A stretch of 64,000 nt of DNA. Source: a plasmid. The notes beneath the pieces were generated by a model that was not told where the DNA came from, made no database searches, and worked only from the letters and a program-made list of their open reading frames with translations. Position 1 is the first letter of the stretch; each line of letters opens with the position of its first letter. This document shows, one piece after another, positions 3,468 to 57,551 of the stretch. The stretch is from sequence record CP033547.1, one strand, 5' to 3'. A program made the translations under genes and the position numbers.

Positions 3468-4452
<985 letters not shown>

Positions 4453-6821: not shown

Positions 6822-6826
6822 AGGGC

Positions 6827-12290: not shown

Positions 12291-13765
12291 ATGAGTTTAA
12301 TTATTAAAGCGAGAAACATACGCTTGGATTATGCTGGGCGTGATGTTTTGGATATTGATGAATTGGAAATTCACTCTTATGACCGTATTGGTCTTGTGGG
12401 TGATAACGGAGCAGGAAAGAGTAGTTTACTCAAAGTACTTAATGGCGAAATTGTTTTAGCCGAAGCGACATTACAGCGTTTTGGTGATTTTGCACATATC
12501 AGCCAACTGGGCGGAATCGAAATAGAAACGGTCGAAGACCGGGCAATGTTATCTCGCCTTGGTGTTTCCAATGTACAAAACGACACAATGAGTGGCGGAG
12601 AGGAAACTCGTGCAAAAATTGCTGCCGCATTTTCCCAACAAGTACATGGCATTCTAGCGGATGAACCAACCAGCCACCTTGATCTCAATGGAATAGATCT
12701 ACTTATTGGTCAACTTAAAGCATTTGATGGAGCATTACTTGTTATCAGTCATGACCGATATTTTCTTGATATGGTTGTAGACAAGATATGGGAGTTAAAA
12801 GACGGTAAAATTACGGAATATTGGGGTGGTTACTCGGATTACTTGCGTCAAAAAGAAGAAGAGCGACAACACCAAGCCGTAGAATATGAGCTGATGATGA
12901 AGGAACGGGAGCGATTAGAATCTGCTGTGCAAGAAAAACGCCAGCAAGCTAATCGATTAGACAATAAGAAAAAAGGAGAAAAATCCAAAAACTCTACCGA
13001 AAGTGCTGGACGACTTGGGCATGCAAAAATGACTGGCACCAAGCAAAGAAAACTGTATCAGGCAGCTAAGAGTATGGAAAAGCGTTTGGCTGCATTAGAA
13101 GATATTCAAGCACCAGAGCATTTGCGTTCTATTCGTTTTCGTCAAAGTTCAGCCCTAGAACTGCACAATAAGTTCCCGATTACGGCAGATGGTCTGAGCT
13201 TAAAATTTGGTAGCCGTACTATCTTTGATGACGCTAACTTTATAATACCGCTTGGCGCTAAAGTCGCTATAACTGGATCGAATGGAACAGGGAAAACGTC
13301 CTTGTTAAAAATGATATCAGAACGTGCTGATGGATTAACCATATCTCCAAAAGCTGAAATTGGCTACTTTACACAAACAGGATATAAATTTAACACGCAT
13401 AAATCTGTGCTCTCCTTTATGCAGGAAGAGTGCGAGTACACAGTTGCGGAAATTCGTGCAGTATTGGCTTCAATGGGGATCGGAGCGAATGATATTCAAA
13501 AAACTTATCCGACTTATCGGGAGGTGAAATCATCAAACTGCTTTTATCCAAAATGCTTTTAGGAAAATATAATATTTTGCTTATGGATGAACCATGAAAC
13601 TATCTTGACCTAAAAAGTATTGCCGCATTAGAAACAATGATGAAGTCCTATGCAGGAACTATTATCTTCGTATCTCATGACAAGCAATTGGTCGATAATA
13701 TTGCTGACATTATCTACGAGATCAAAGACCACAAAATCATCAAGACTTTTGAGAGAGATTGTTAA
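12291..13765 (+). pseudogene. msr(E): ABC-F ribosomal protection protein Msr(E) (macrolide resistance), disrupted: 1-bp insertion near 13510 and in-frame TGA at ~13596 in LLMDEP-G motif
   Basis: [50 protein letters not shown]... two ABC domains; C-terminus [38 protein letters not shown]...KTFERDC readable in other frame. Confidence 0.9.
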
Positions 13766-14847: not shown

Positions 14848-14853
14848 AACCTG

Positions 14854-16340
14854 TGTAAGCCCAAAATAGAAATGTCCGGTTTCTCCAAAGTAAAAAATGT
14901 CCGCTTTTAGAATATGCGCTTTTGCAATTTCCTTAGCGGACGGTTTGATATGTTGGTGTCTATGTCGGATAAAGAACTTAAACGATTGTCGGTCTTGCAA
15001 GAAATCTGTGATCAACGTATAACTCAATCCCAGGCTGCTCAGCTACTTCATATCTCAGAACGTCACATCAGACGCTTACTGCAGAAATACAAAGCTCAAG
15101 GTCCCGCTGCATTAGCCCATGCCGGTCGTGGCCAAATCAGCAATTCTAAACTTCCTGAAGAACTCAGACTTAAGTGTCTCAATATTGTTTCAGATCAACT
15201 TTATGGTTTCGGACCCACTTTAGCGCATGAAAAGCTCACCACCGTGCATGGATTCGATCTTTCAGTAGAAACCCTGCGTTCCTTGGATGATTGCAGCCGA
15301 TTTATGGATCCCTCGCTGCAAGCGCCTGAAACGACCATATCAGCCTCGTTATAACCGAGATTGTTATGGTGAATTGATCCAAATTGATGGCTCACACCAT
15401 GATTGGTTTGAAGGTCGAGCACCTAAATGCTGTCTGCTAGTATTCATCGATGATGCCACAGGAAAATTGCAGCATTTACGCTTCTGTGCGTCAGAGTCAG
15501 CCTTTGACTATATGATTTCGACACGTTTATATATCGAACAGCATGGTAAGCCATTGGCATTTTACAGTGACAAACATTCAGTTTTTAGGGTGAATCAAAG
15601 TAGCAAGAAAGACACCAAGATTACCCAGTTTGGACGTGTTCTGAGCACTCTCAATATCGATATCATTTTCGCTAACTCCCCTCAAAGCCAAAGGTCGTGT
15701 AGAACGAGCGAATAGAACACTTCCAGGATCGTCTGATTAAGGAGATGCGTCTAGAAGGCATCAGTTCAATTGCAGATGCCAATAAGTGGCTGCCGTGCTT
15801 TATTGAGCAATTTAATCGTAAATTCGCCAAGATGGCTTTTAATTCCAAGGATCTACATCGGCCTATCGCTGAAACAGCCGAAGAATTAGATGATGTTTTT
15901 ACCTGGCGTGAACCCCGCAGGGTCACGAACAGCTTGACGATTACTTATGATAAATGCGTATATATCTTGGAAAACAGCGAAGAAAATCAAAGATTGGGCG
16001 GCAAGTATCTTGAGTTCCTTGGAATATCCGGATGGTACTGTAGCCATTGAATATCAGGGAAGAAAAATCAATTACAGCATCTTTGATAAATTAAGTCAGC
16101 TCAACCAGCGAGAGATCGTTGAGAATAAACGTTTGGGTTCTGTGCTGGCACATATTCAACAACAGCATGAACAACTGGAACACCAAAACAAACGCAATCG
16201 TTCTCAAAAGATGCCACGTAGACAAGCACAGAAAACAGCGATTGAACAACGAAATCTAAATCCTGTGTTTGACTTGGAAATGTCCATATAGGACATTTCT
16301 ATTTGGTTATTAGGTAGGACATTTCTACTTGGGAATAACA
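14854..16340 (+). mobile_element. IS copy B (same ISNCY/IS1202-like element), transposase in 4 fragments (14914..16291); 6 bp (AACCTG) from XerC arm; no TSD detectable
   Basis: Ends TGTAAGCCCAAAATAGAAATGTCC (14854) and GGACATTTCTACTTGGGAATAACA (16340). Confidence 0.8.
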
Positions 16341-21646: not shown

Positions 21647-23130
21647 TGTTATTCCCAAGTAGAAATGTCCTACCTAATAACCAAATAGAAATGTCCTATA
21701 TGGACATTTCCAAGTCAAGCACAGGATTTAGATTTCGTTGTTCAATCGCTGTTTTCTGTGCTTGTCTACGTGGCATCTTTTGAGAACGATTGCGTTTGTT
21801 TTGGTGTTCCAGTTGTTCATGCTGTTGTTGAATATGTGCCAGCACAGAACCCAAACGTTTATTCTCAACGATCTCTCGCTGGTTGAGCTGACTTAATTTA
21901 TCAAAGATGCTGTAATTGATTTTTCTTCCCTGATATTCAATGGCTACAGTACCATCCGGATATTCCAAGGAACTCAAGATACTTGCCGCCCAATCTTTGA
22001 TTTTTCTTCGCTGTTTTCCAAGATATATACGCATTTATCATAAGTAATCGTCAAGCTGTTCGTGACCCTGCGGGGTTCACGCCAGGTAAAAACATCATCT
22101 AATTCTTCGGCTGTTTCAGCGATAGGCCGATGTAGATCCTTGGAATTAAAAGCCATCTTGGCGAATTTACGATTAAATTGCTCAATAAAGCACGGCAGCC
22201 ACTTATTGGCATCTGCAATTGAACTGATGCCTTCTAGACGCATCTCCTTAATCAGACGATCCTGAAGTGTTCTATTCGCTCGTTCTACACGACCTTTGGC
22301 TTGAGGGGAGTTAGCGAAAATGATATCGATATTGAGAGTGCTCAGAACACGTCCAAACTGGGTAATCTTGGTGTCTTTCTTGCTACTTTGATTCACCCTA
22401 AAAACTGAATGTTTGTCACTGTAAAATGCCAATGGCTTACCATGCTGTTCGATATATAAACGTGTCGAAATCATATAGTCAAAGGCTGACTCTGACGCAC
22501 AGAAGCGTAAATGCTGCAATTTTCCTGTGGCATCATCGATGAATACTAGCAGACAGCATTTAGGTGCTCGACCTTCAAACCAATCATGGTGTGAGCCATC
22601 AATTTGGATCAATTCACCATAACAATCTCGGTTATAACGAGGCTGATATGGTCGTTTCAGGCGCTTGCAGCGAGGGATCCATAAATCGGCTGCAATCATC
22701 CAGGAACGCAGGGTTTCTACTGAAAGATCGAATCCATGCACGGTGGTGAGCTTTTCATGCGCTAAAGTGGGTCCGAAACCATAAAGTTGATCTGAAACAA
22801 TATTGAGACACTTAAGTCTGAGTTCTTCAGGAAGTTTAGAATTGCTGATTTGGCCACGACCGGCATGGGCTAATGCAGCGGGACCTTGAGCTTTGTATTT
22901 CTGCAGTAAGCGTCTGATGTGACGTTCTGAGATATGAAGTAGCTGAGCAGCCTGGGATTGAGTTATACGTTGATCACAGATTTCTTGCAAGACCGACAAT
23001 CGTTTAAGTTCTTTATCCGACATAGACACCAACATATCAAACCGTCCGCTAAGGAAATTGCAAAAGCGCATATTCTAAAAGCGGACATTTTTACTTTGGA
23101 GAAACCGGACATTTCTATTTTGGGCTTACA
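21647..23130 (-). mobile_element. IS copy C (same ISNCY/IS1202-like element, 1484 bp), flanked by AAGATT duplication; least damaged copy
   Basis: AAGATT at 21641-21646 and 23131-23136; same terminal sequences as copies A/B. Confidence 0.85.
21696..23071 (-). CDS. IS transposase (~470 aa; N-terminal HTH, DDE/rve integrase core), one frameshift at ~22000 (extra T)
   Basis: MRFCNFLSGRFDMLVSMSDKELKRLSVLQEICDQRITQSQAAQLLHISERHIRRLL...IQIDGSHHDWFEGRAPKCCLLVFIDDATGKL... Confidence 0.8.
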
Positions 23131-23136
23131 AAGATT

Positions 23137-24193: not shown

Positions 24194-24221
24194 ATTGCGT
24201 ATAAGCACCATTATGTTAAAT
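24194..24221. other. pdif site (XerC-spacer-XerD): ATTGCGTATAA GCACCA TTATGTTAAAT
   Basis: dif-like 11-6-11. Confidence 0.7.
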
Positions 24222-24290
24222 AGACAGTGAATTAGTGGAAAAATCCAGTTATTGTGAAGCGTGGATAAGAGATTTTATGTCGAGCAATGA

Positions 24291-24776
24291 TTACCTATCA
24301 ACAAAGTATTCAGATAAAGTCTGTTTCCATTGAGATTGTATCTCTTTATTCTTATCTCTATATTTCTCAATACATTTCATAAGGTTATATCTATTTTTTG
24401 TACAAATAGTATCTGCTATTTTACTTAATACATCTATTTGATAAGGAATAGTTAGGCCAAATTTCTCAAGGAGAATATCTATTTCTGGTAAAAATAATCT
24501 GACTAATTCTTCATTAGATTTATTAAATTTGTTTTTAAATTCTTGAGGAATACATGAATTTCCTATGCGATCATAAATTTCAGGATTTTGAACATAATGC
24601 TTATTTTCCAATATAAGGCCTTTGTATCTAAGATACTCAATATCAATTTTTGATAAATCTTGCTCAAGAAAATAATAACAAGTCCATTTTATTTGTGATA
24701 AATGAGTTAATTCAACAAATTGGAATGGTCTCTCAATATATATTCCCGTATTATTTATTATTTCACTAATAAACAA
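24291..24776 (-). CDS. Hypothetical protein (161 aa), downstream of and co-oriented with the CBASS-like operon
   Basis: ORF only; no recognisable domain. Confidence 0.35.
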   Translation of the reverse strand: MFISEIINNTGIYIERPFQFVELTHLSQIKWTCYYFLEQDLSKIDIEYLRYKGLILENKHYVQNPEIYDRIGNSCIPQEFKNKFNKSNEELVRLFLPEIDILLEKFGLTIPYQIDVLSKIADTICTKNRYNLMKCIEKYRDKNKEIQSQWKQTLSEYFVDR

Positions 24777-24814
24777 TATAAAATTAATATGATTCTTATT
24801 TAGATATTTTAGAG

Positions 24815-24918
24815 TAGACCTCTTGCGAAAGTATTATTTTTGACTATTTTAGACTTTGATATTTATTTAAAAATCAACGTTTATCACTGATTAAATTTTG
24901 ACTAACGCAAGAGGTCTA
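24815..24918. repeat. MITE-like 104-bp element with 13-bp terminal inverted repeats TAGACCTCTTGCG...CGCAAGAGGTCTA; same left end as IS5-family remnant at 31033
   Basis: TAGACCTCTTGCGAAAGTA at 24815 and 31033; inverted copy at 24903-24918. Confidence 0.6.
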
Positions 24919-25093
24919 TATATTATTGGGGATATTAAAGTGAAGAGAGTCGCTGAGACTTATACAACTTAAAAAATATTTATGTATGCCGACCTTATTT
25001 AAAACAAAAAGACTCTTAATTAAAAAAAACAATATATTTATTTTAACAATTAACTGCTTCGTTAATTAGTCATTTAATCTAACTAAAGAATAT

Positions 25094-26167
25094 CTACAAA
25101 GTCGGTTTCTCTTCAATAGATGAAGTATTAGAACTTTCTGAAAATTTACCATTATGTAATTTTTCAAAGCAATGTGGACAGGTGTCTCGAGCCACTAATT
25201 TCATATCATTAATTTTTCTACCAGTGTAACCAATACTGTAACGAGTAAAATAGTTATTTTCTAATTGATTAGAATTTCTCCATTCTAAAAGAAGATCGAT
25301 TGCTAAACCCGCCACAGATAGACTGGATGAAACTGAATAAGGAGTATATGCAGCGCAAGGTCCCAAGCCCATAACTTTTTTATAGTCCTTATTCCCTAGA
25401 GGGTCTAAATCATCTTTATAATCCTGTATTCCAGATTGATGCAAACAACTAATACATCCACCTTTACTCTCATAATCGGAAGGAGTATTCATCAATGCTT
25501 GCACACATTCTCCATTGCCATATATCCATAAATGTAAAAGGTGTGGCCTATCATGTGCAGGTATTTGAATTATCTTTTCATTTAAATACTCTGCGATTTC
25601 AACTTGTCCAGTAGAATCTACTATTAAATCATATTCGTCAAAATTACTAATTGTATTTACACTTTTTTCTACAGAGTGAATGAAAAGTCCATTATTACCA
25701 ACCTGCTCTTTAATATATTCGATTATTGCATTTGCTTTATTTAATCCAATATACTTTTTCCCTAATATATGTCTTCCTATATTTTCAAGTTTAAGGTCAT
25801 CATAATCACAAACACTAAAACAACCTGTTTCCATACCAGCACCAATTTTAACTAATGCATCTGCAACATATCCTCCGATTGCACCTGCTCCAATTTGTAA
25901 AATTTTCAGATTCGTTAAATTATTGTTTTTAATACCTTCTATATTTCTATTAATTAATTCTTGCATACAGTAACTCTTTATATAAACAGGTAACACCATC
26001 TCCCTCAATATTTCCGATAATATTCTCACATTCCCTTTTAACAATTTATAATATTTACTCTTCCATTCTACAAAAAATGAAAAAAAATGATTCTCAAAGA
26101 CCAAAGAAACGAATATTTTTTTATCGGATTTAAATTTATTTAAATTTCTTTTTAAAACAAAAAACAA
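25094..26167 (-). CDS. cap2: E1-like (ThiF/MoeB-family) adenylyltransferase, Cap2-like
   Basis: Rossmann GAGAIGG, two CxxC (GCISCLHQ, CPHCF); 357 aa; ORF 26271..26570 upstream may be its N-terminal (E2?) part. Confidence 0.7.
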   Translation of the reverse strand: MFFVLKRNLNKFKSDKKIFVSLVFENHFFSFFVEWKSKYYKLLKGNVRILSEILREMVLPVYIKSYCMQELINRNIEGIKNNNLTNLKILQIGAGAIGGYVADALVKIGAGMETGCFSVCDYDDLKLENIGRHILGKKYIGLNKANAIIEYIKEQVGNNGLFIHSVEKSVNTISNFDEYDLIVDSTGQVEIAEYLNEKIIQIPAHDRPHLLHLWIYGNGECVQALMNTPSDYESKGGCISCLHQSGIQDYKDDLDPLGNKDYKKVMGLGPCAAYTPYSVSSSLSVAGLAIDLLLEWRNSNQLENNYFTRYSIGYTGRKINDMKLVARDTCPHCFEKLHNGKFSESSNTSSIEEKPTL

Positions 26168-26270
26168 TTAGGATCAATATCATTAATAAATAAAAACATT
26201 TTCCCTAATGTTATCTCCCCCTCCCTATTAAAGTAATTTGACAATAAAGGAATATTATCTTTAAAAACTT

Positions 26271-26570
26271 TCAACAAAATAAAATCAAAATCAATCGTTT
26301 TTGACATTTATTATCTTTAGTAGAAATATATGTTAAAGGTAGATTCTGAAAACTCCCATTATTATTTAACTCCACAAATAAGTTTTCAGAACTATACTTT
26401 TTCTCAAACTCATTTGAAAATATCATCCACATTGGAATTATTTCTTTTCTCAACTCTTTCATAAAAATTGAGGGATTCATTAATTCTAATATTACATGTT
26501 TAAATTGGCTTTCCAGAAAACATATAACATCTACCAGATTCTTTCTATTAATTTCTATTTTGTCATGCAA
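26271..26570 (-). CDS. Hypothetical 99-aa ORF between JAB and E1 genes (possibly N-terminal portion of Cap2 separated by frameshift)
   Basis: ORF only; contains Cys (DVICFLES) but no clear UBC motif. Confidence 0.3.
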   Translation of the reverse strand: MHDKIEINRKNLVDVICFLESQFKHVILELMNPSIFMKELRKEIIPMWMIFSNEFEKKYSSENLFVELNNNGSFQNLPLTYISTKDNKCQKRLILILFC

Positions 26571-26882
26571 GGCATAGCAAAAATTATAGGCTTTTTATTC
26601 AAATAAGTAAAATGAGAATCAATTGAAAAATGAGGCAAAGGGAAAATAAAATGTTTAATCCTTTTATTTACTTCCAATTAAATCATCTTCAAACAAATAC
26701 ACTCTTGGAGGATTAATAAAATCCCAATCCAAAAAAAAATACACCTAATCTTATATTGAATCCAGATACAACAATATTTTTCACCCATAAACTATTGTAA
26801 AACCGTTTTTTTAAATTTGTATCATAGGGATCCACTAGATTATAACCTAGCTGTGTAAGATATTGAGCACATGAAGCGGGAA

Positions 26883-27383
26883 TCAAAGCGTATCCCCCTC
26901 ATAAACTCTTAAAGCATAATATTTTTTATTTAAAAGTAAACTAAACCAATCTTCTTTATAACTTTTGTTTCCTGCTATCCATAGTAACTTAGGAAGCTCA
27001 TTAAATTTCCCATTACTAATAAGTTGACTCCACCCTTGATAATCACAATTAGAAGGCCGTGGTTGTGGTTCTGGATGAGTATGCCATTCGCCTATATATT
27101 GTAATATCCCATTTGAAATTTCATGTACCTTGTTTAAATAACTTTGATGTTTTGTAGACTTTCTATGAAAGCTATAAATAGTTCTTTCATCATCATCTGC
27201 TGGAGAACTAATATCGATTACCCTTAATGATTTACTACGTATTTCACCAATAATTATTCCACACGCCTCAGCTTTTTGAGCATCTGCAAACTGTCTGTGA
27301 AGATGAATTAAATGAAGTGCACTATCTGTTAAGTGCACTTCAAATCTTAGTTCATCAGAATAAAGATGCAAGCCCAACTTCAC
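26883..27383 (-). CDS. cap3: JAB/MPN+ (JAMM) metallopeptidase, Cap3-like
   Basis: JAMM motif E...HTHPEPQPRPSNCD (HxHx7Sx2D); GTG start overlaps upstream stop (GTGA). Confidence 0.8.
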   Translation of the reverse strand: MKLGLHLYSDELRFEVHLTDSALHLIHLHRQFADAQKAEACGIIIGEIRSKSLRVIDISSPADDDERTIYSFHRKSTKHQSYLNKVHEISNGILQYIGEWHTHPEPQPRPSNCDYQGWSQLISNGKFNELPKLLWIAGNKSYKEDWFSLLLNKKYYALRVYEGDTL

Positions 27384-28563
27384 CCACCCCTTGTAGGTTC
27401 AATTATTGCTGGGGACGTAGCTTGATATGGCAATTCCTGATTAGCATTCTCAATAACCACATAACTTTCATTGTCAGGAATTCTTTTTCCGAATTGGCTT
27501 CGCAGAAAACCAATTGAAGTTTTAGGTGATTCAATATCAATAGCTACTGAAACTGCGCTAAGTAAATCTTTAGCTAAATCATGCGCTTCTTGTCTTTCCT
27601 CTTTAGGAATTCTATTGAAGTCTTCATCTGTATGTTCAGGAATAGAAGGTTCTTTGACTGGCCCAAGTAATGCCTTTGGGAGATGTCTTAAAACATGCAA
27701 TAAAAGCAAGATCATCTCTATCTTTAACATATTGATAATTTTGATTTGCTATAATCATCAGCAATATTGAGCTTGGCCCTCCACCATCTTTATATTCTTG
27801 ATCTCGCCAAGCTTTAAGATAACGAGCAATATATCTTAATTGCCGACCATTATCTTCTTGATCAGCCAAAAAATCTGCATACCATTTACGAATTAACTCA
27901 CAGTCACTATCTTTCCAATTACCATCACGTAAAGCCATATGGATTTTAGTAATGTAATGTAATTCGATGATTTTCGCTTCACTTTCAAAGCTTTCAGTTG
28001 CGTAGTGATAACCCTTGAATACATATTCATCTTTGGCAATTGTTGCTTTTGCCTCATCTAGAATCATATTGTTTCTTTCAACTAAGCTATCGAACATTGG
28101 ATCAGGTACAATATAAAGAGGTACATCCATATGTGCATTGCCTTTCAATATAAGTCGGCAACAAGTATTTTTATCTTTACATAGTTTCCAACCCTCACTA
28201 TCAGCCAAAGGTTGCAATAACGTTTCCACTGCCAAATAATATGATTTAGCTACCTTATCAGAACGTCCCTGAGCTAATAAAGAATTTGGAAGGTACACAC
28301 CATAATCAACATCCATTTCTTGTGTAGGGTATGCTGGCTGGTTACAAGTACCATAAGCCCAAGATCCTTGAAGACGGAATTTTGGCTTAACAAGATTTGG
28401 ATCGCCTCCATTCTCTACAATGAAATTTGCCATACCTTGCTTCCAGCGTGGCTCTTACCTTTTGACGACACGCATTTAAATAATCACGCTGATCATTTGT
28501 AGGCTTAATTTGTGTAATAAAGCCGTCATCTCTAGCTCTAAAAGTTCTGTGTAAATTACTACC
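27380..28563 (-). pseudogene. cdn: cGAS/DncV-like nucleotidyltransferase (CD-NTase/SMODS), two frameshifts (near 27700 and 28440)
   Basis: GS...DxD motif: RLQGSWAYGTCNQPAYPTQEMDVDYGVYLP, third acidic HMDVPLY; N-terminal MGSNLHRTFRARDDGFITQIKPTNDQRDYLNACRQKVRATLEA in adjacent frame. Confidence 0.7.
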
Positions 28564-29583
28564 CATTTAATTTATCTCCCCCTACATTTTTTTGTGGCCC
28601 ATCAAACCATTCTCTTTTTCTAGAAGGCTGATTAAAATAATTTCGTATAAAATCTTTGCCCAATGCAACTTTTGCAGATTGAATTCCATTTCCTTCAAGT
28701 ACTTGCTTAGCAGCATCACTTGTTTCATCTAGTCCAATAAATTGGGCTGATGCTTGCACGATCTGTTCGTCGATTTTGTAAAATTGGTTTGGAAATGGTT
28801 CCATTCTATGCTTAACCATTTGTTCCATAAATTGTTGCTGGCTACTCAAAACTAGATCAATAATATTTGGAGCTGCCTTAAGGATAGACCCCTCACCCCA
28901 ATCTAGGTATCCACCATCTTTTTTTTGTACTTGGATTAAGCTGCTTTTTTGACGATAAAGTACCAATCGAAAGAATGTGTACATCTTGAATATTCTTTTT
29001 AAACATATAATCAGCTTCATGTAAGCCAATCAAGCTAGGATCATTAGCAAAAAGCCCACCATCTACATATTCATTTGGACCAATCGGATGTCGTGGAAAA
29101 TAAGTAGGCGCTGCAGATGTAGCTAAAGCTACATCAACTATTTTTAATTTCCAATCACGTTTCAGATTTGGATTATGTGGTGTTTTCAGGGTTACAGGAC
29201 TGCCTCGTGTGAAATCAATTGTAGGAATAACTACAGGACATTTGAGATCTCCTAAAATTGAATCTCCGAACCACTCTTCTAAGACAGTTTTCAATGATTC
29301 ATTAGAGTATTTTGAACCTGTAAATTTAAGAAAAGGCTTAGGCTGAAATATTTTATCACCGTGTGATTTAAACAAATCAACGATAGCTTCAACTTTTATT
29401 CCATAAGCAATTGCCAACGCGACTATACCACCGACAGAGGTACCGGTTATTAGATCAAAACAATCAGCTATAGAGTCGTGTCCATTTTCTTTAGCTTCTT
29501 GCTCTAATTCTTTTAAAACTGTTGCAGTGAATAACCCTCGATATCCCCCCTCCTGATAGAGCTAGGATTTGAAATTTTTCCAT
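28559..29583 (-). pseudogene. capV: Patatin-like phospholipase effector (CapV-like), frameshifts (G6 run ~29555; ~29025)
   Basis: MEKFQILALSGGG(Y)RG oxyanion motif, GTSVGG (GxSxG), DGGLFANDP (DGG). Confidence 0.75.
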
Positions 29584-29932
29584 TTTTGTTGAACTTATAA
29601 TATGAATTACTTTTTTTTTATGAGGCCATTTGTGTGAATTTCAACCCATTTTTTGAAAAAAAATTTATATTTTTGTTGGTTTTGTTGCATAAACATTTTG
29701 CAAGGTACTGATTTTTTAAAGGTTTGCGCAGAATTTCAACCTAAGAATAAATTTAATAAAATCATATTCTTAGGTATTTATGCAACAAAGCCTTTTTGTT
29801 TGCAAGAGCTACTTATATGCACTGCTATTATATTGAGTAATATATTTCTAAAAATTAAGATGGAGTTTTACTCTTATAACAAATAAAATTTAGTAACAAT
29901 ATATTTTTTATAATTTAATTTAGGTATATCTA

Positions 29933-30379
29933 GTGACACATTCAGTCGATCGACTCATACATAACTCACTTAAAGAAATATGTAAAAAATGTAAAGAAGA
30001 TTTTTCAGGCTTAGCGATAGTTTGTTATGAGGATTTAAGTCACCTTCCCTATATAAGCTTACATAAAGAACAATTTTTTACCGATTTTGATTTAAAAAAT
30101 ATTAATGAAACCTTACTGAGAATATCTACTTATTCTTCAGCCTACCATGATGGATTTCATTTCTATGATATTAACTCTAAAAAATTAACCCATATTTCTC
30201 AATTCATCTCCCCTCCGTTAGAGTCTGTAGCATATATGAATATTGAAAATATCATTCCTTGCGGTGCTCGTGAGATGACAGCTTACTTAACATCGAGTAT
30301 TCAAGGAATATTTTGTGTAGGCCTGATCAGTGCCAATAAGACTATAAAAGTTTTTAAAAACAACTCAATTGTTAAATAA
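29933..30379 (+). CDS. Hypothetical 148-aa soluble protein, divergent from CBASS operon
   Basis: ORF only. Confidence 0.35.
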   Translation: MTHSVDRLIHNSLKEICKKCKEDFSGLAIVCYEDLSHLPYISLHKEQFFTDFDLKNINETLLRISTYSSAYHDGFHFYDINSKKLTHISQFISPPLESVAYMNIENIIPCGAREMTAYLTSSIQGIFCVGLISANKTIKVFKNNSIVK

Positions 30380-30390
30380 CGGGTAAGTGC

Positions 30391-31032
30391 ATGAGTTTTT
30401 TAGTACTAAAATTTAATGAGCTAACAAAAATAATTTACTTATTTGTAGGACTTACTGGTGTATTTATTGGATTAATACAATTTGTTAATTGGCTTGTTGC
30501 TGGAAGTCTAACTTTACTCCAATCTCTAACCCCTTCCATTACCGTATCACTTTTTATCTTAGGCTTACTTCTTAGAACAGTTACAATTAAGCATAAGTTT
30601 TTAAGTATTATTATTGGCAAGCCAATTATACATGGATTATGGAAAGGGAATTTGACGAGCAATTTTGAGGTAAATGGACAAAAAATTCCTCCAATTGAAA
30701 TCTATTTCTTCATAAAGCAGACTTTCTTAATAACCACCATCAAATCTTACACCTCACATCAGGCATCTGAATCAATCATTACAGCTTTGTCCCACAATAA
30801 AGACAGTGAAATTTCTGATTTTATCTATATTTATAAGTTTTATCGGACAAAACATAGTGAAAATAAGGTGACTTTCGGTAGTGGAAATTTAAGACTAATC
30901 AACCAAGGACAAACTTTGGAAGGCTTCTATTGGACTACTGCAAATACATGCGGTGAAATCGAGTTAAATTTGATAGAACGTAATTGTGAAAGCATAGACT
31001 CCTATCAACTAGCAAAGCAACATGATAAATAA
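30391..31032 (+). CDS. Hypothetical 213-aa protein with two N-terminal TM helices and beta-rich C-terminus (Cap15/S-2TMbeta-like architecture)
   Basis: IIYLFVGLTGVFIGLIQFVNWLVAG and ITVSLFILGLLLRTV hydrophobic helices then soluble domain. Confidence 0.4.
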   Translation: MSFLVLKFNELTKIIYLFVGLTGVFIGLIQFVNWLVAGSLTLLQSLTPSITVSLFILGLLLRTVTIKHKFLSIIIGKPIIHGLWKGNLTSNFEVNGQKIPPIEIYFFIKQTFLITTIKSYTSHQASESIITALSHNKDSEISDFIYIYKFYRTKHSENKVTFGSGNLRLINQGQTLEGFYWTTANTCGEIELNLIERNCESIDSYQLAKQHDK

Positions 31033-31316
31033 TAGACCTCTTGCGAAAGTAAAAAATGCCTCAATATAGATTTCATGAGATATGAGAAATTAAACCGTTT
31101 TTCAGATTCTGAATTTAAGCGCTTGGTTGGTGTACCTCGACCAGTTTTTACTGGAAGTGGTCGATGTTTTAGAAAAAGCAGAATCACTTAAAAAGAAATC
31201 AGGTCGTCCTCATACTTTAGCTATAGAGGATCAATTATTATTAACGCTCAATTACTTACGCAACTACAACACTCAACTAGAATTGGCGGCATACTACCAT
31301 ATCGCTGAAAGTAATG
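31033..31316 (+). mobile_element. Truncated IS5-family element (IRL TAGACCTCTTGCGAAAGTA plus transposase N-terminus 31075..31316), cut by IS3-family insertion
   Basis: MRYEKLNRFSDSEFKRLVGVPRPVF...LEVVDVLEKAESLKKKSGRPHTLAIEDQLLLTLNYLRNYNTQLELAAYYHIAESNVNR typical IS5/DDE_Tnp_1 N-terminus. Confidence 0.6.
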
Positions 31317-32650
31317 TGAACCGTACCGGGTTTGTCGGAGAGTCAATATTCTGAGAGACTACCCCCGATGACAAAATTAAAATACACCCCTGAAATCAGA
31401 GATAGAGCGGTTCAATTATTGATTGAATCTGAAAAAGATTATCCTTCTACTTGGGCTGCAATCACAGCAATTGCGCCTAAGATTGGTTGTACTCCTGAAA
31501 CACTTCGTGCCTGGCATCAAAAGCATTTAGATCAGCAAAATCCAGTTAAAGTACAGCAGCTTTCAGACCAAGAACGTATCAAACAACTCGAACGCGAAAA
31601 TAAAGAAATAAAGAACTGCAACGCACCAATGAGATTCTACGTAAAGCAGCCGCTTTTTTCGCCCAGGCGGAGCTCGACCGCCCACACAAATAATGGTGGA
31701 TTTCATCCATAACAATAAAGATCGATATGGTGTTGATGCGATTTGTAGGATTTTACCGATCGCAGCTTCAACCTATTACCGAACTTTAGATCTCGCTGAC
31801 AATCCAGAACATCGAGCGAAACGAGATCTACATGATGAGTATCATGCTGAACAAATTCAACGAATTTGGAAAGAAAGTTCAGGTCGATATGGTGTGCGTA
31901 AGGTCTGGCAACAATTGAAACGTGAAGGTTATGTTATCGCACGTTGTACAGTTGCTCGATTGATGCAGAAGCTAGGTATACAAGGTGTCTGGCGTGGTAA
32001 GAATAAACAAACCACCCGTAGCCGAGATGATCAAAAACGAGCAGCTGACTTAGTGAAACGGAATTTTAGTGCAGATCAGCCCGACCACCTTACGAAACAG
32101 TGTTTCTCAGGTCACTGATTTTACGTATATTCAAACCCATTCAGGCTGGGTCTATACCGCCTTTATTATTGATGAGTTCTCACGAGCAATTGTTGGATGG
32201 AAAGTATCGACACGGATGAATACAGATATGGTGCTCGATGCATTAGAGCAAGCATTACATGATCGAGGTATACCCAAGAATGTGATTCATCATTCCGACA
32301 GAGGTGTGCAATATCTTTCCATTCGTTATACCAATCGTTTAGAAGCAGCAAATTTACGAGCTTCCAGTCGGTACAACTGGTGATTCATACGATAATGCTT
32401 TGGCTGAAACGGTGAATGGCTTATACAAAACAGAGGTGATTGAATATTTAAAAGCAGATTGGCGTGGTTTAGCAGATGTACAACTTGCGACATTAAACTG
32501 GGTAGATTGGTTCAATAAAGAGCGTGTACATAGTGCACTGGGTTATGTGTCACCTGTTGATTTTTGGAAGCAATGTACTATGATAAAATTAATCCGTTAG
32601 GTCAGGTAGCCTAACTTAAATAAAGTCTCCGACAAACCCGGTACGGTTCA
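31317..32650 (+). mobile_element. IS3-family IS copy 1 (1334 bp; IRs TGAACCGTACCGGGTTTGTCGGAGA), orfA/orfB heavily frameshifted; no TSD
   Basis: Terminal IRs at 31317 and 32622-32650; orfA MTKLKYTPEIRDRAVQLLIESEKDY..., orfB rve-domain fragments. Confidence 0.8.
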
Positions 32651-32710
32651 GGTTGATTTATCCAATAGCCTGCAATTAGTTGAATATTCTTATCTAAATA
32701 TAAAATTTTC

Positions 32711-33890
32711 CTTTGTACACGACAAAAAAAGATAACTCATTGAAATAATGGCATAATACTTGTTTTCTGACGACGAATATGATGACACATTTCAATGAGT
32801 TACATCTCATCTTAAACAAATATCTAAAGTGGAACAAGTCACATGCAAAATGTTTTACACTGATTATGCTTGCATTAATTGTAAAACAGACATGTAATCT
32901 TTCTTCTGCATCTAAAGCCTTACCCATCAAGTGCTTACCACAATCATTTTATCGACGTATACAACGCTTCTTTGCAGATCAGTATTTCGATTATCGTCAA
33001 ATTTCTCAGTTAATTTTCAATATATTTTCATTCGATAAAGTCCAATTAACTTTGGATAGAACCAACTGGAAATGGGGAAAACGAGATATCAATATCTTGA
33101 TGTTAGCCATCGTCTATCGTGGAATAGCGATACCTATTGTTTGGACATTGCTCAATAAACGTGGCAATTCAGATACAAAAGAGCGTATTGCTTTGATTCA
33201 ACGCTTTATCTCCATTTTTGGTAAAGATCGTATTGTGAATGTGTTCGCAGACAGAGAATTTATCGGTGAGAAATGGTTTACATGGTTAATTGAAAATGAC
33301 ATTCACTTCTGTATACGTGTTAAAAAAAACTTTATTGTGACCAATCACTTAGCCAAGAATCATAAAATTAGTGATTTATTTCGTCATCTTCAAGTTGGTC
33401 AAACAGAATGTCGTAAACGACGTATTTGGGTTGGTCGAGTGAAACTGTATATTAGTGCGCTACGATTAGAAGATGGAGAACTTTTACTTGTTGTTTCTCC
33501 TATGTTTAATGCTTCTGCTATTCGTGATTATGCATTACGCTGGGAAATCGAAACCTTATTTAGTTGTCTCAAAGGACGTGGATTCAATCTTGAAAATACT
33601 CGTTTAACAGACCCTAGACGAGTTAAGAAATTGATAGCAGTGCTAGCTATCGGTTTCTGTTGGTGCTATTTAACAGGTGAATGGCAACATGATCGAAAAA
33701 AGCGATAAAAATAAAGAAGCATGGACGACTTTCAATAAGTTTATTTCGCTACGGTTTGGACTATGTTCAAATGGTTATTCTACGTTTGATTGGTTTTGGA
33801 AAAAAAGAAGAATTTAAGAAAGTGCTCGCAATTTTAAGAAAGAAAAAGCCTGATAGAACAAGGGCCCTATGAAATTTGTCGTGTACAGAG
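32711..33890 (+). mobile_element. ISAba1-family IS4 element (1180 bp) with perfect 9-bp TSD AAAATTTTC; inserted at stop codon of integrase gene
   Basis: IRs CTTTGTACACGACAAA / CTCTGTACACGACAAATTTC; TSD 32702-32710 and 33891-33899; Tpase MTHFNELHLILNKYLKWNKSH... Confidence 0.85.
32782..33708 (+). CDS. IS4-family (ISAba1-like) transposase, C-terminal 50 aa in other frame
   Basis: 309-aa ORF; ~85% similar to the ISAba1 copy at 56356. Confidence 0.8.
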   Translation: MTHFNELHLILNKYLKWNKSHAKCFTLIMLALIVKQTCNLSSASKALPIKCLPQSFYRRIQRFFADQYFDYRQISQLIFNIFSFDKVQLTLDRTNWKWGKRDINILMLAIVYRGIAIPIVWTLLNKRGNSDTKERIALIQRFISIFGKDRIVNVFADREFIGEKWFTWLIENDIHFCIRVKKNFIVTNHLAKNHKISDLFRHLQVGQTECRKRRIWVGRVKLYISALRLEDGELLLVVSPMFNASAIRDYALRWEIETLFSCLKGRGFNLENTRLTDPRRVKKLIAVLAIGFCWCYLTGEWQHDRKKR

Positions 33891-33897
33891 AAAATTT

Positions 33898-35097
33898 TCA
33901 CTGAGCAGCACTTAAATAATCTCCCCACCACTGCATCATTTCAGTTCGTTGAATTAAATAATCCGCATGATTATAGCTAGCACGTGTACGATTCTTATCA
34001 ATATGCGAAAGTTGAGCCTCAATCCAATTATCTTGGAACAATCCTGAGTCATTCAAAATAGTACTGAAGGTAGAACGTAATCCATGGGAGGAAAGTTGAT
34101 GTTTTCCATACCCCATCTTACGTATAGCCATATTTAATGTATTAAAATGAATCGGGTGATCCTGCTTTCGCGGACTAGCAAAAATGAATTTTTCACCCAA
34201 TGACCATTGCATCGCATCTTTTAAGATCTCTAACGCCTGATCTGAAAGTGGAACTAAAAAATCTGGAATTTCATGTCCTAGGATAACTTTACGTCGAAAC
34301 TGTTTAATATGTAAGGCTGGAATTCTCCAAATTTTATCTTTTATATCAAAATGATGAGGTTCAGCCATTAACAACTCTGCCCCTCGCACGCCAGTATATA
34401 ATTTAAACATGAGTGCTTTTTTTAATAATGGGATGTGCATCCAACTTTTTTAATTTATGCATAAAATCTGAGATGTCTTCAGCTTTTAAATAAGGATAGT
34501 TCTTCTTGATTTTATTGTTAACAGCAATTTTATTTAAACCATGCGCGATATTATATTCACAATAGCCCATTGCTACAGCATAGTCAAAAATTTGGTTCAA
34601 ATAACTACAAGCTTTTTGACAGGTTCTTTAACTTGACGTGACTCTATTTTTCTAATTATTGAAACTAGGTCATAGCGCTTAATATCTTGAAAAGGGATAT
34701 CCTGAAGAACTGGATAAATATCATGCTGTAAACATTTTTCTGCTAACTGGAGAACACCACAGCGTGGTAAATCATTGAATGCATTTTTAAGTTTGAACTG
34801 TAGCCACTCCTCTGCTACCTGATGAAAAGTAATTAAATTAGAAACAGTTTCATTTTCAAAACAGAAATTATTATCTCTAAAATCATCCCTGACTTGTCGT
34901 GCCTTTTTCAGGGATAAATCAGGATAAAGCCCTAACTGAATTCGGCGGCGTTTCTTGGTTTTTGGATCTGTATATCGATAACTCCAAGACTTCCTTCCAT
35001 TTGGTTCAATTTTTAGACTAAGTCCATCTTCATCCGATAAAAAACAAGTTTTTTCCTTGCAATGAGCTTGGCGAACTTTAATTTCAGTAAGACTCAT
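33898..35097 (-). pseudogene. int: P4-type tyrosine integrase (~400 aa), two frameshifts
   Basis: N-terminal arm-binding ORF, core-binding ORF, catalytic ORF with HGLRSTFST (HxxR) and RASYNHADY (Tyr). Confidence 0.75.
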
Positions 35098-57533: not shown

Positions 57534-57551
57534 ATTATTATAGAAGCCCCC

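What the first reader, a model, noticed from the sequence alone, without database searches (positions are those of the whole stretch)
25094..29583. Type II CBASS-like anti-phage operon on a resistance plasmid, with atypical gene order and no obvious E2
A minus-strand operon reads capV (patatin), cdn, cap3 (JAB), a small ORF, then cap2 (E1). The patatin phospholipase has SGGGxRG, GTSVGG and DGG motifs. The CD-NTase has the GS...DVD motif plus a third acidic residue. The JAB peptidase has HTHP-x7-S-xx-D with a GTGA overlap, and the E1 has GAGAIGG and two CxxC motifs.

This matches capV-dncV-cap2-cap3 in content but not in order: JAB precedes E1, and 0.7 kb of unassigned small ORFs (26271-26882) sit where an E2 domain would be expected. 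Several genes carry homopolymer indels.

The operon is bracketed by copies of the same 19-bp IR (TAGACCTCTTGCGAAAGTA at 24815 and 31033), which suggests it was mobilised as a unit.
Basis: partly seen in the sequence, partly recalled or inferred. Interest (0 to 1): 0.75.

Follow-up and report, generated by a model that had tools for sequence, protein, structure and literature searches.

The report
Ordinary type II CBASS, with E2
This is a complete, already-annotated anti-phage CBASS operon on an Acinetobacter carbapenem-resistance plasmid; the "missing E2" is the front half of the Cap2 gene, broken up by single-base sequencing errors, and a recently described "Panoptoo" guard system sits next to it.

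Summary
The four genes are real and form a type II CBASS on the minus strand: capV (28559-29583), a cGAS/DncV-like cyclase (27380-28566), cap3/JAB (26883-27383) and cap2 (25094-26886).

The same 6.5 kb occurs in eight Acinetobacter pOXA-58/pNDM-type plasmids. Seven of them differ from the window only slightly (99.8% identity). Aligned base by base to one of these, the window differs by 15 single-base indels, almost all in homopolymer runs, and by no substitution. In those records the genes are intact, and six of them name the cyclase and the lipase as CBASS proteins.

The "0.7 kb of unassigned small ORFs" is the N-terminal E2 and linker part of a 597-aa Cap2, split by five indels. It has an invariant cysteine. 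The predicted structure best matches E. cloacae Cap2 (7TO3) over its full length.

Having cap3 before cap2 differs from the Vibrio reference. That order is shared by the closest Cap2 relatives in Acinetobacter, Kingella, Haemophilus, Rodentibacter, Histophilus and Neisseria.

The two exact 19-bp copies are direct, not inverted. One ends a separately dispersed 104-bp MITE. The other is the left end of a truncated IS5-family element. Mobilisation as a unit is not supported.

The divergent neighbours (29933-31032) are a Panoptoo PanS/PanE pair.

Verdict: already known; low interest.

The parts
25094..26886 (-). cap2: E2 (N-terminal), linker and E1 (C-terminal) fusion. It is 597 aa from a TTG start that overlaps the cap3 stop (TTGA). 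In the window it is split into six frames by indels at 26158, 26297, 26591, 26674 and 26731. The codon of the candidate E2 catalytic Cys is at 26577-26579.
   Evidence: Intact in NZ_CP028573.2 and NZ_CP102764.1. PADLOC E1-E2 model PDLC00854 matches aa 13-557, 317 bits. Pfam ThiF. Invariant C86, C494, and CxxC 461/464 with C553 (C556 nearly invariant). AF2 model pLDDT 83.7; top Foldseek hit 7to3_A Cap2 over 622 columns. Start site from homologues.
26883..27383 (-). cap3: JAB/JAMM isopeptidase, 164-166 aa, intact in the window. The GTG start overlaps the cyclase stop (GTGA).
   Evidence: Pfam Prok-JAB 58 bits. PADLOC JAB 152 bits. NCBIfam Cap3 107 bits, below the cut-off of 200. HxH-x7-S-xx-D motif.
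27380..28566 (-). cdn: cGAS/DncV-like nucleotidyltransferase, 394 aa, C-terminus ...EPTRGG. Split in the window by indels at 27702 and 28443.
   Evidence: NCBIfam CBASS cGAMP synthase 357 bits, cut-off 150. Pfam DncV-like_NTFase plus DncV_C. V. cholerae DncV structures at E 4e-33 with GS/DxD/D aligned. Sequence.
28559..29583 (-). capV: patatin-like cGAMP-activated phospholipase, about 340 aa. RefSeq's 375-aa model runs to about 29690, into a MITE. Split in the window by indels at 28919 and 29545.
   Evidence: NCBIfam CBASS_lipase 374 bits, cut-off 200. PADLOC phospholipase effector 370 bits. Motifs. Chromosomal orthologues are 336-340 aa.
29678..29792 (.). MITEAba12-like miniature transposable element in the capV/panS divergent intergenic region. 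It is 113 bp in the reference plasmids and 115 bp here because of two indel errors.
   Evidence: 16-bp TIRs GGTTTTGTTGCATAAA / GGCTTTGTTGCATAAA, an 81-bp core, and flanking TTTTTGTT repeats. Matches the published description of MITEAba12 (PMC6382973). Absent from the chromosomal cassettes.
29933..30379 (+). panS: minimal diadenylate-cyclase-domain synthase of a Panoptoo system, 148 aa, intact.
   Evidence: PDB 37jy 'Panoptoo PanS synthase', E 7e-11 over aa 9-141. The DGF motif is conserved and GAR stands in place of GGR. Preprint 10.64898/2026.08.10.743927.
30391..31032 (+). panE: effector with two transmembrane helices and a Cap15-like beta-rich receptor domain, 213 aa, intact.
   Evidence: Pfam Cap15_CD_rec 41 bits, cut-off 31.2. 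PADLOC 2TM effector 81.5 bits.
24815..24918 (.). 104-bp MITE.
   Evidence: The same element, with the same ends, occurs alone in plasmids of A. haemolyticus, A. johnsonii, A. ursingii, A. lwoffii and A. pittii.
31033..31312 (+). It is interrupted by an IS3 element (31313-32650) and then by an element with ISAba1-type ends (32711-33890). No right inverted repeat is present.
   Evidence: (H10-H25).
24196..24219 (+). pdif-like XerC/XerD site (TGCGTATAA-GCACCA-TTATGTTAA). It marks where sequence shared with several hundred other Acinetobacter plasmids stops and the CBASS-bearing segment starts.
24291..24776 (-). 161-aa ORF of unknown function between the pdif-like site and the 104-bp MITE. It travels with the cassette on the plasmids but is absent from the chromosomal cassettes.
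   Evidence: No Pfam, NCBIfam, PADLOC or PHROG match. Presence and absence.

Best explanation
The locus is a complete, canonical-content type II CBASS anti-phage operon: capV-cdn-cap3-cap2, tightly packed with overlapping start and stop codons. It lies on an Acinetobacter pOXA-58-type resistance plasmid.

**Inferred mechanism (from characterised homologues, not shown here)**
- The DncV-like cyclase makes a cyclic dinucleotide, most likely 3'3'-cGAMP, on phage infection.
- That signal activates the patatin phospholipase CapV, which degrades the membrane and aborts the infection.
- Cap2 adenylates the cyclase's C-terminal Gly-Gly tail in its E1 domain.
- Cap2 then passes the tail to the E1 cysteine (candidate C494) and the E2 cysteine (candidate C86, RefSeq numbering; add 17 for the 597-aa form).
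- Cap2 conjugates the cyclase to a target, which primes it. Cap3 reverses the conjugation.

**The apparent anomalies**
- The broken reading frames and the "missing E2" come from single-base indel errors spread evenly over the whole assembly. They are not biology.

**The neighbour**
- The divergently transcribed pair is a Panoptoo guard system.
- PanS, a minimal diadenylate-cyclase-type enzyme, is expected to make a decoy cyclic dinucleotide constitutively. The decoy keeps the membrane effector PanE off.
- A phage sponge or nuclease that removes cyclic dinucleotides to escape CBASS would release PanE.
- The six genes form a conserved cassette in Acinetobacter chromosomes and plasmids.
For: **Identity with intact plasmids**
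- Seven plasmids are 99.8% identical over the 6.5 kb and an eighth is 99.5%. They carry the four genes intact. Six of the eight name the cyclase and the lipase as CBASS proteins; CP059478.1 calls them patatin-like phospholipase and hypothetical, and CP033537.1 lists only a peptidase and hypotheticals.
- Aligned base by base to NZ_CP028573.2, the window differs by 15 single-base indels and no substitution.

**Even spread of the indels**
- The rate is about 2 per kb inside the operon, 3 per kb in its flanks, and 1.9-3.3 per kb across 17 kb of the neighbouring backbone.
- blaOXA-58, msr(E), sul2 and the tyrosine recombinase are truncated in the same way.

**Family assignments**
-, with DncV structures at E 4e-33.

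**Cap2 E2 domain**
- A full-length PADLOC E1-E2 match.
- An invariant Cys, His and Pro in the N-terminal domain across 35 homologues.
- That Cys aligns with a Cys inside the Pfam Prok-E2_B match of distant homologues.
- The AF2 model best matches 7to3_A, E. cloacae Cap2, over 622 columns.
- The published Cap2 architecture is E2-linker-E1, with a non-canonical E2 lacking the HPN motif.

**Cyclase tail**
- The cyclase ends in ...RGG. Type II cyclases have a conserved ubiquitin-like tail.

**Panoptoo**
-.

**Cassette conservation**
- The six-gene cassette is conserved at 51-91% protein identity in Acinetobacter chromosomes.
Against: - No function was measured here. The cyclase product, the conjugation chemistry, phage protection, the PanS product and PanE toxicity are all inferred from homologues.
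- NCBIfam's Cap3 equivalog scores below its cut-off (107 versus 200).
- NCBIfam and Pfam have no E2 model that hits this Cap2. The HMM profile search against PDB sequences aligned only the E1 domain.
- The E2 assignment therefore rests on the PADLOC profile, the fold match (TM about 0.5, multi-domain) and transitive alignment.
- PanS has G-A-R where the R. etli enzyme has G-G-R.
- I cannot see the reads, so genuine frameshifts in this particular isolate are not strictly excluded.
Confidence: 0.93

Rival explanations
1. The frameshifts are real. This copy of the CBASS is a decaying pseudogene array, or a phase-variable one switched through homopolymer tracts.
For: Nine single-base indels interrupt cap2, cdn and capV in the window, mostly in A/T/C runs. 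Defence systems are costly and are often inactivated.
Against: - There is no substitution against 15 indels in 6.5 kb.
- The same indel density occurs in non-coding flanks and across the plasmid backbone.
- Genes under selection (blaOXA-58, msr(E), sul2) are truncated in the same way.
- Seven independent plasmids carry the intact version.
- This is the signature of unpolished long-read assembly.
Confidence: 0.04
2. The operon, together with Panoptoo, is the passenger of a composite transposon bounded by the 19-bp inverted repeats of an IS5-family element, and it moved as a unit.
For: - Two exact 19-mers lie at 24815 and 31033, with none expected by chance.
- Both are termini of elements of one family.
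- The outer left end (24815) could in principle have cooperated with a since-lost right end of the IS.
Against: - The exact copies are direct repeats.
- The left one belongs to a 104-bp MITE found alone, with the same ends, in unrelated plasmids.
- The right-hand IS is truncated after about 280-340 bp, and no right IR exists in the window.
- The eight plasmids that carry the region keep the same immediate flanks: the 161-aa ORF and the MITE on one side, and the IS5 end on the other; seven of the eight records also show the same tyrosine recombinase beyond it; in CP033537.1 that stretch carries no annotated gene. Three of them were read in detail.
- Chromosomal copies of the cassette lack the 19-mer.
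- Homology with other plasmids ends at a pdif-like site at 24196-24219, not at the IR.
Confidence: 0.07
3. The system is an E1/JAB pathway with no E2, or with a novel small-protein substitute for E2, or a non-CBASS ubiquitin-like or sulfur-carrier system.
For: Pfam and NCBIfam detect only ThiF in Cap2. The window shows only small ORFs at 26168-26886.
Against: - In the intact references the region is one continuous 580/597-aa ORF.
- PADLOC E1-E2 matches full length.
- The fold matches Cap2 7TO3 end to end.
- An invariant Cys is present.
- A bona fide CD-NTase and CapV sit in the same overlapping operon.
Confidence: 0.01

Closest known systems
Vibrio cholerae / E. coli TW11681 type II CBASS (capV-dncV-cap2-cap3)
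   Same: - The same four components: a patatin CapV, a DncV-like cGAMP-synthase-family cyclase (GS/DxD/D aligned with DncV, E 4e-33), a Cap2 E1-E2 fusion and a Cap3 JAB.
- A cyclase with a C-terminal Gly tail.
   Different: - Gene order is capV-cdn-cap3-cap2.
- The cyclase is only distantly similar to DncV: phmmer E 4e-33, aligned over residues 59-370 only.
- The Cap2 E2 domain is too divergent to hit Pfam Prok-E2_B.
Enterobacter cloacae Cap2-CdnD02 complex (PDB 7TO3/7TQD)
   Same: The best structural match to the predicted Cap2 over its whole length: E2-linker-E1, 622 aligned columns, Foldseek E 4e-15. The E1 domain is also the best sequence match.
   Different: - 13% sequence identity.
- TM about 0.5, which reflects domain orientation and divergence.
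- The partner cyclase there is CdnD with a different effector.
Panoptoo PanS/PanE (Ragucci, Haley and Kranzusch, bioRxiv 10.64898/2026.08.10.743927; PDB 37jy)
   Same: A two-gene unit of a roughly 150-aa minimal DAC-domain synthase plus a two-transmembrane, Cap15-like effector, encoded next to a CBASS.
   Different: - G-A-R instead of G-G-R in the second active-site motif.
- The product (3'3'-cUA or c-di-AMP) is unknown.
- Transcribed divergently from the CBASS, with a MITE in the shared intergenic region.
Panoptes (mCpol/OptS plus OptE 2TM-beta)
   Same: The same guard logic and the same effector family. A related A. baumannii locus (L041) has mCpol plus a Cap15-like gene beside a type II CBASS.
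   Different: The synthase here is a DAC-domain protein, not a minimal CRISPR polymerase.
MITEAba12 (Adams and Brown 2019, PMC6382973)
   Same: For the element at 29678-29792:
- 113 bp in the reference plasmids.
- 16-bp TIRs differing at one base, with an 81-bp core.
- An 8/9 flanking duplication.
- It creates an 'MQQ...' N-terminal extension on the neighbouring gene, as described in the paper.
   Different: Any effect on capV/panS transcription is untested.

Membership tests
Type II CBASS | [quoted passage not shown] | tested here: met
   NCBIfam CBASS cGAMP synthase 357 bits, cut-off 150. Pfam DncV-like_NTFase plus DncV_C. Motifs align to DncV.
Type II CBASS | A cyclic-nucleotide-activated effector in the same operon | tested here: met
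   CapV: NCBIfam CBASS_lipase 374 bits, cut-off 200. PADLOC phospholipase effector. GGGYRG, GTSVG and DGG motifs.
Type II CBASS | Cap2 with an E1 (ThiF-type adenylation) domain | tested here: met
   Pfam ThiF 52 bits. GAGAIGG motif. Cap2 E1 crystal structures 7TSQ/7TSX are the best PDB sequence hits.
Type II CBASS | Cap2 with an N-terminal E2 domain carrying a catalytic cysteine | tested here: met
   - PADLOC E1-E2 model matches aa 13-557.
- C86 is invariant and aligns with the Cys inside Prok-E2_B matches of homologues.
- Full-length fold match to 7to3_A.
- The catalytic role of C86 is inferred.
Type II CBASS | Cap3 JAB/JAMM isopeptidase | tested here: met
   Pfam Prok-JAB 58 bits. PADLOC JAB 152 bits. 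HxH-x7-S-xx-D motif. The NCBIfam Cap3 equivalog scores below its cut-off (107 of 200).
Type II CBASS | CD-NTase with an extended C-terminal tail ending in Gly/Ala for conjugation | tested here: met
   The C-terminus is ...AIIEPTRGG.
Type II CBASS | Phage defence, cyclic-nucleotide synthesis and cyclase conjugation | not testable with these tools
   Needs experiments.
Panoptoo (panSE) | A minimal (about 150 aa) DAC-domain synthase with DGx and G-x-R motifs | tested here: met
   148 aa. PDB 37jy PanS at E 7e-11 over aa 9-141. DGF is conserved and GAR replaces GGR. No Pfam DisA_N hit at E <= 0.1.
Panoptoo (panSE) | An adjacent S2TM-beta (Cap15-like) effector | tested here: met
   Pfam Cap15_CD_rec 41 bits, cut-off 31.2. 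PADLOC 2TM effector. The gene starts 12 bp after the panS stop.
Panoptoo (panSE) | Constitutive decoy nucleotide that represses a toxic effector | not testable with these tools
   Needs expression and LC-MS experiments.
Composite transposon bounded by IS5-family ends | Two element ends in inverted orientation at the outer boundaries, with a functional right end | tested here: not met
   The exact 19-mers are direct. The right-hand IS is truncated, and no right IR occurs anywhere in the window at up to 3 mismatches.
Composite transposon bounded by IS5-family ends | The same bounded unit at more than one genomic site | tested here: not met
   All eight plasmids share one context. Chromosomal cassettes lack the 19-mer.
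Acinetobacter pdif (XerC/XerD) module | pdif sites at both ends of the segment | tested here: inconclusive
   The left site at 24196-24219 coincides with the homology break. No partner was found to the right, where nested IS insertions obscure the boundary.

The most novel reading that the evidence does not exclude
The CBASS-Panoptoo six-gene cassette may be a co-evolving guard and guarded unit that rides with carbapenemase genes on Acinetobacter plasmids. The cap3-before-cap2 subclade and its divergent E2 domain might reflect a changed regulation of cyclase priming. The MITEAba12-like insertion in the shared control region might rewire expression of both systems. If so, it would be a natural system for studying how a decoy-nucleotide guard is tuned to its neighbouring CBASS.
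Probability: 0.12. Interest if true: 0.4.

Novelty: already known. Interest (0 to 1): 0.15.

Why it matters
The scientific gain is small.
- The locus is an intact, already-annotated defence operon. The feature that made it look unusual is an assembly artefact.
- Practical lesson: in this window, every broken gene should first be read as a homopolymer sequencing error.
- Carbapenem-resistance plasmids of clinical Acinetobacter (pOXA-58 and pNDM types) carry a CBASS plus a Panoptoo guard. This is relevant to phage-therapy host range and to the co-spread of phage resistance with antibiotic resistance.
- Minor annotation points follow. The RefSeq start of Cap2 is 17 codons short. The 375-aa CapV model starts inside a MITE. 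PanS and PanE are still labelled "hypothetical".

Tried and rejected
- **Sequence and profile search of Cap2 against PDB.** It aligned only the E1 domain and did not reach the E2 domain of 7TO3. I used structure prediction plus Foldseek instead.
- **Pfam and NCBIfam on Cap2.** They give no E2 hit for this subfamily. The link was made through distant homologues that do hit Prok-E2_B.
- **Promoter and terminator scan of 24200-31200.** It found no more sites than in shuffled sequence, so it is uninformative.
- **Search for a right-hand pdif site.** None was found.
- **Attempt to find an "empty site".** I looked in plasmids that share the recombinase backbone but lack the cassette (pD36-4, p1UC20804). 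They are too rearranged by IS elements to define one.
- **Hypothesis that the nearby tyrosine recombinase moves the cassette.** That gene is backbone in more than 60 plasmids. It is only 27% identical to the integrase near one chromosomal cassette. No support.
- **Literature search for a prior description of this plasmid CBASS.** It found only a different, type III CBASS on an NDM/OXA-58 plasmid.
- **PHROGs, Pfam, NCBIfam and PADLOC on the 161-aa ORF.** No match.
- **Rfam.** It found only the IS3 frameshift pseudoknot.

Full report
**1. What is in the sequence**

ORF listing of 23.5-32.5 kb shows a run of minus-strand fragments. Pfam assigns them as follows:
- ThiF: 25094-26167.
- Prok-JAB: 26883-27383.
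- DncV-like nucleotidyltransferase plus DncV_C: split between 27380-27730 and 27636-28433.
- Patatin: 28893-29417.

The genes are visibly broken across reading frames.

**2. The same DNA elsewhere**

Megablast of 24700-31200 against PLSDB finds the whole stretch in eight Acinetobacter pittii or baumannii plasmids, seven at 99.8% identity and one at 99.5%. They include pOXA58_005046, pNDM-32 and pAOR07BL-2.

In those records the region holds four intact, co-oriented genes. Six of the eight records use these names; CP059478.1 and CP033537.1 use vaguer ones:
- CBASS cGAMP-activated phospholipase (375-377 aa).
- cyclic GMP-AMP synthase DncV-like nucleotidyltransferase (394 aa).
- Mov34/MPN/PAD-1 family protein (164-166 aa).
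- ThiF family adenylyltransferase (580 aa).

A base-by-base alignment of the window to NZ_CP028573.2 shows 15 differences. Every one is a single-base insertion or deletion, and none is a substitution. Fourteen of them lengthen or shorten a run of the same base.

Nine fall inside the operon, about 2 per kb, and six in the 2 kb of flanks. The neighbouring 17 kb of shared backbone shows 1.9-3.3 gaps per kb.

Other genes in the window are truncated in the same way:
- blaOXA-58-like (profile positions 1-245 of 280).
- msr(E)-like (to position 405 of 487).
- sul2 (1-186 of 271).
- The tyrosine recombinase (split into 180 and 166 aa).

This is the pattern of an unpolished long-read assembly, not of gene decay.

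**3. The "missing E2"**

The five indels at 26158, 26297, 26591, 26674 and 26731 cut cap2 into six frames. In the references the ORF is continuous.

Its true start is most likely a TTG 17 codons upstream of the RefSeq GTG. That start overlaps the cap3 stop as TTGA. Homologues begin M-IPAFC..LTQLGYNLVDPYD, and the same residues are encoded there. Cap2 is therefore 597 aa and spans window 25094-26886, leaving no unassigned gap.

Evidence that its N-terminal part is the E2 domain:
- The PADLOC E1-E2 model PDLC00854 matches residues 13-557 against model positions 38-602 of 605, at 317 bits.
- In an alignment of 35 homologues down to 22% identity, P43, H68 and C86 are invariant in the N-terminal domain. 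So are the E1 features G316/G318/G321/G322, C461, C464, C494 and C553; C556 is nearly invariant.
- Eleven of the distant members hit Pfam Prok-E2_B. In the four I checked, the residue aligned with C86 is a Cys lying inside that Pfam match.
- An AlphaFold2 model built from the alignment has mean pLDDT 83.7 and pTM 0.71. It places C86 directly after a beta-hairpin (strands 69-77 and 80-85) and C494 in a flexible loop.
- The best Foldseek hit in the PDB is 7to3_A, the E. cloacae Cap2-CdnD02 complex. It is aligned over 622 columns with E 4e-15 and TM about 0.5.

The Cap2 paper describes this architecture: an N-terminal non-canonical ATG10/ATG3-like E2 without an HPN motif, with the Cys on a hairpin; a linker; and a C-terminal E1 with its Cys on the crossover loop. 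This explains why a reader looking for a UBC-type E2 would not see one.

In the window the C86 codon (26577-26579) lies just upstream of the first start codon of the 26271-26570 fragment. It therefore does not appear in any listed ORF.

**4. The other components**

- **Cyclase.** NCBIfam CBASS cGAMP synthase equivalog, 357 bits against a cut-off of 150. V. cholerae DncV structures match at E 4e-33, with QGSW, MDVDYG and HMDVP aligned to the DncV catalytic motifs. The C-terminus is ...EPTRGG, the ubiquitin-like tail expected of type II cyclases.
- **CapV.** NCBIfam CBASS_lipase, 374 bits against a cut-off of 200. Motifs GGGYRG, GTSVG and DGG are present.
- **Cap3.** Prok-JAB and PADLOC JAB match, and the JAMM motif HTHPEPQPRPSNCD is present. 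NCBIfam's Cap3 equivalog scores only 107 bits against a cut-off of 200.
- **Operon packing.** capV/cdn overlap by 8 nt, cdn/cap3 by GTGA and cap3/cap2 by TTGA.

All sequence-testable defining features of a type II CBASS are met.

**5. Gene order**

A scan of one genome per species with the Cap2 alignment returned 32 loci. I located the partner genes in them by tblastn. Contig look-ups for closer homologues added more.

| Relatives | Order |
|---|---|
| Acinetobacter relatives, 38-67% Cap2 identity | capV-cdn-cap3-cap2 |
| Kingella, Haemophilus, Rodentibacter, Histophilus, Neisseria, about 30% | cdn-cap3-cap2-capV |
| More distant Cap2 (those with a Pfam E2_B hit) | capV-cdn-cap2-cap3 (the Vibrio order) |
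| One A. baumannii locus | capV-cap2-cdn-cap3 |

cap3 before cap2 is therefore a clade trait found in several genera, not a peculiarity of this plasmid.

**6. The neighbours: a Panoptoo system**

Two intact genes are transcribed divergently from capV. The first (29933-30379, 148 aa) has no Pfam, NCBIfam, PADLOC or PHROG match. It does hit PDB 37jy, "Panoptoo PanS synthase", at E 7e-11 over residues 9-141. The DGF motif is conserved, and G-A-R stands at the position of G-G-R.

The second (30391-31032, 213 aa) matches Pfam Cap15_CD_rec above threshold and PADLOC 2TM effectors.

A 2026 preprint defines Panoptoo in these terms:
- A minimal diadenylate-cyclase-domain PanS constitutively makes 3'3'-cUA or c-di-AMP.
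- That nucleotide holds a toxic S2TM-beta effector, PanE, in check.
- The pair is usually encoded beside a CBASS.
- It fires when a phage sponge such as Acb4 removes the nucleotide.

The six-gene arrangement PanE-PanS | CapV-Cdn-Cap3-Cap2 recurs in Acinetobacter chromosomes. Protein identities to the plasmid copy are uneven:

| Protein | Identity in two chromosomal cassettes |
|---|---|
| CapV | 91 / 82% |
| Cdn | 84 / 71% |
| Cap3 | 76 / 69% |
| Cap2 | 67 / 53% |
| PanE | 78 / 60% |
| PanS | 59 / 51% |

PanS/PanE homologues also flank more distant CBASS loci (L018, L025, L026 with PanS only, L029 and L033). The chromosomal CapV proteins are 336-340 aa.

**7. The 19-bp repeats and mobility**

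The 19-mer occurs exactly at 24815 (+) and 31033 (+), and with three mismatches at 24900-24918 (-).

The first and third copies are the ends of a 104-bp element. That element is found alone, with the same boundaries, in plasmids of A. haemolyticus (100%), A. johnsonii, A. ursingii, A. lwoffii and A. pittii. It is therefore an independently mobile MITE.

The copy at 31033 is the left end of an IS5-family element, about 93% identical to annotated IS5-family transposase genes and about 90% to ones annotated as ISAba27-family. About 280 bp in, it is interrupted by an IS3 element carrying an ALIL frameshift pseudoknot. An element with ISAba1-type ends follows. After that the plasmid backbone, the tyrosine recombinase region, resumes. 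That region is present at 91.5% identity in more than 60 plasmids. No right-hand inverted repeat exists.

Sequence shared with several hundred other Acinetobacter plasmids stops at a pdif-like XerC/D site at 24196-24219. This is a better candidate for the left boundary of the accessory segment. No right-hand partner was found.

Chromosomal copies of the cassette lack the 19-mer. The composite-transposon reading is therefore not supported, though an ancient event cannot be excluded.

**8. An extra element in the control region**

Window 29678-29792 is a MITEAba12-like element between capV and panS. It is 113 bp in the references.
- It has 16-bp terminal repeats that differ at one base, an 81-bp core and an 8/9 flanking duplication, TTTTTGTT(G/T).
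- This matches the published description.
- That paper also notes outward-facing promoters and "MQQ..." fusions to neighbouring genes.
- RefSeq's 375-aa CapV model begins MQQNQQ inside this repeat.
- The element is absent from the chromosomal cassettes.

Whether it changes expression of either operon is untested.

**9. Verdict**

The main interpretation, a type II CBASS on a resistance plasmid, is right. The features that made the locus look unusual are explained as follows:
- The absent E2 and the broken genes are sequencing artefacts.
- The gene order is a known kind of variation within a clade.
- The bracketing repeat is two unrelated insertions.

The adjacent Panoptoo pair is the most interesting thing here, but it has already been described as a class. 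Novelty: already known. Interest: low.

Noticed in passing
window 29933-31032 (+): A divergent two-gene Panoptoo system next to the CBASS, labelled 'hypothetical' in RefSeq. PanS is a minimal DAC-domain synthase that hits PDB 37jy at E 7e-11. PanE is a two-transmembrane Cap15-like effector.
   Followed up: yes
window 29678-29792: A MITEAba12-like element (113 bp in the reference plasmids) inserted in the capV/panS intergenic control region. It has 16-bp TIRs and an 8/9 target duplication. RefSeq's extended CapV start (MQQNQQ...) lies inside its terminal repeat. It is absent from chromosomal copies of the cassette.
   Followed up: partly
window 24815-24918: A 104-bp MITE with IS5-family-type ends. 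It occurs on its own, with identical boundaries, in plasmids of several other Acinetobacter species.
   Followed up: partly
whole window, e.g. 3523-4383, 12291-13562, 33898-35097, 57519-58343: Assembly-wide single-base indels, about 2-3 per kb, truncate blaOXA-58-like, msr(E)-like, sul2 and the tyrosine recombinase as well. Any frameshift in this window should be treated as a probable sequencing error.
   Followed up: partly
window 1874-24219: Fourteen matches to a pdif-like XerC/XerD pattern lie at a dozen sites (0.34 expected by chance), clustered in the first 24 kb around the resistance genes. This is typical of Acinetobacter dif-module plasmids. The site at 24196-24219 coincides with the left homology boundary of the CBASS-bearing segment.
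   Followed up: partly
window 26835-26886; L001 8136-8187: The RefSeq Cap2 model (580 aa, GTG start) is probably 17 codons short. A TTG start overlapping the cap3 stop gives 597 aa and restores the N-terminal LTQLGYNL segment conserved in homologues.
   Followed up: yes
L036/L037 and L038/L039 (Acinetobacter chromosomes): The six-gene CBASS plus Panoptoo cassette is conserved in chromosomal islands, with very uneven divergence from the plasmid copy: CapV 91% identical, but Cap2 67% and PanS 59%.
   Followed up: no
L041 3695-9660 (A. baumannii contig): A sister arrangement: a Panoptes pair (mCpol plus a Cap15-like gene) beside a type II CBASS with yet another order, capV-cap2-cdn-cap3.
   Followed up: no
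window 24291-24776 (-): A 161-aa ORF with no match in Pfam, NCBIfam, PADLOC or PHROGs. It accompanies the cassette on the plasmids and on a metagenome contig (L003), but not in chromosomes.
   Followed up: partly
window 31313-33890: Nested insertions just right of panE: an IS3 element with an ALIL frameshift pseudoknot (31651-31767), then an element of about 1.18 kb with ISAba1-type inverted repeats (32711-33890). The second is absent from the reference plasmids.
   Followed up: partly
window 5337-6822, 14850-16340, 21647-23131: Three copies of one IS of about 1.49 kb. The copy at 21647-23131 is absent from pOXA58_005046.
   Followed up: no
NZ_CP076808.1 43744-44216 (matches window 30679-31151): Plasmid p1UC20804 retains only the last 354 bp of panE joined to the IS5-family end. 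It looks like a deletion remnant of the cassette.
   Followed up: no
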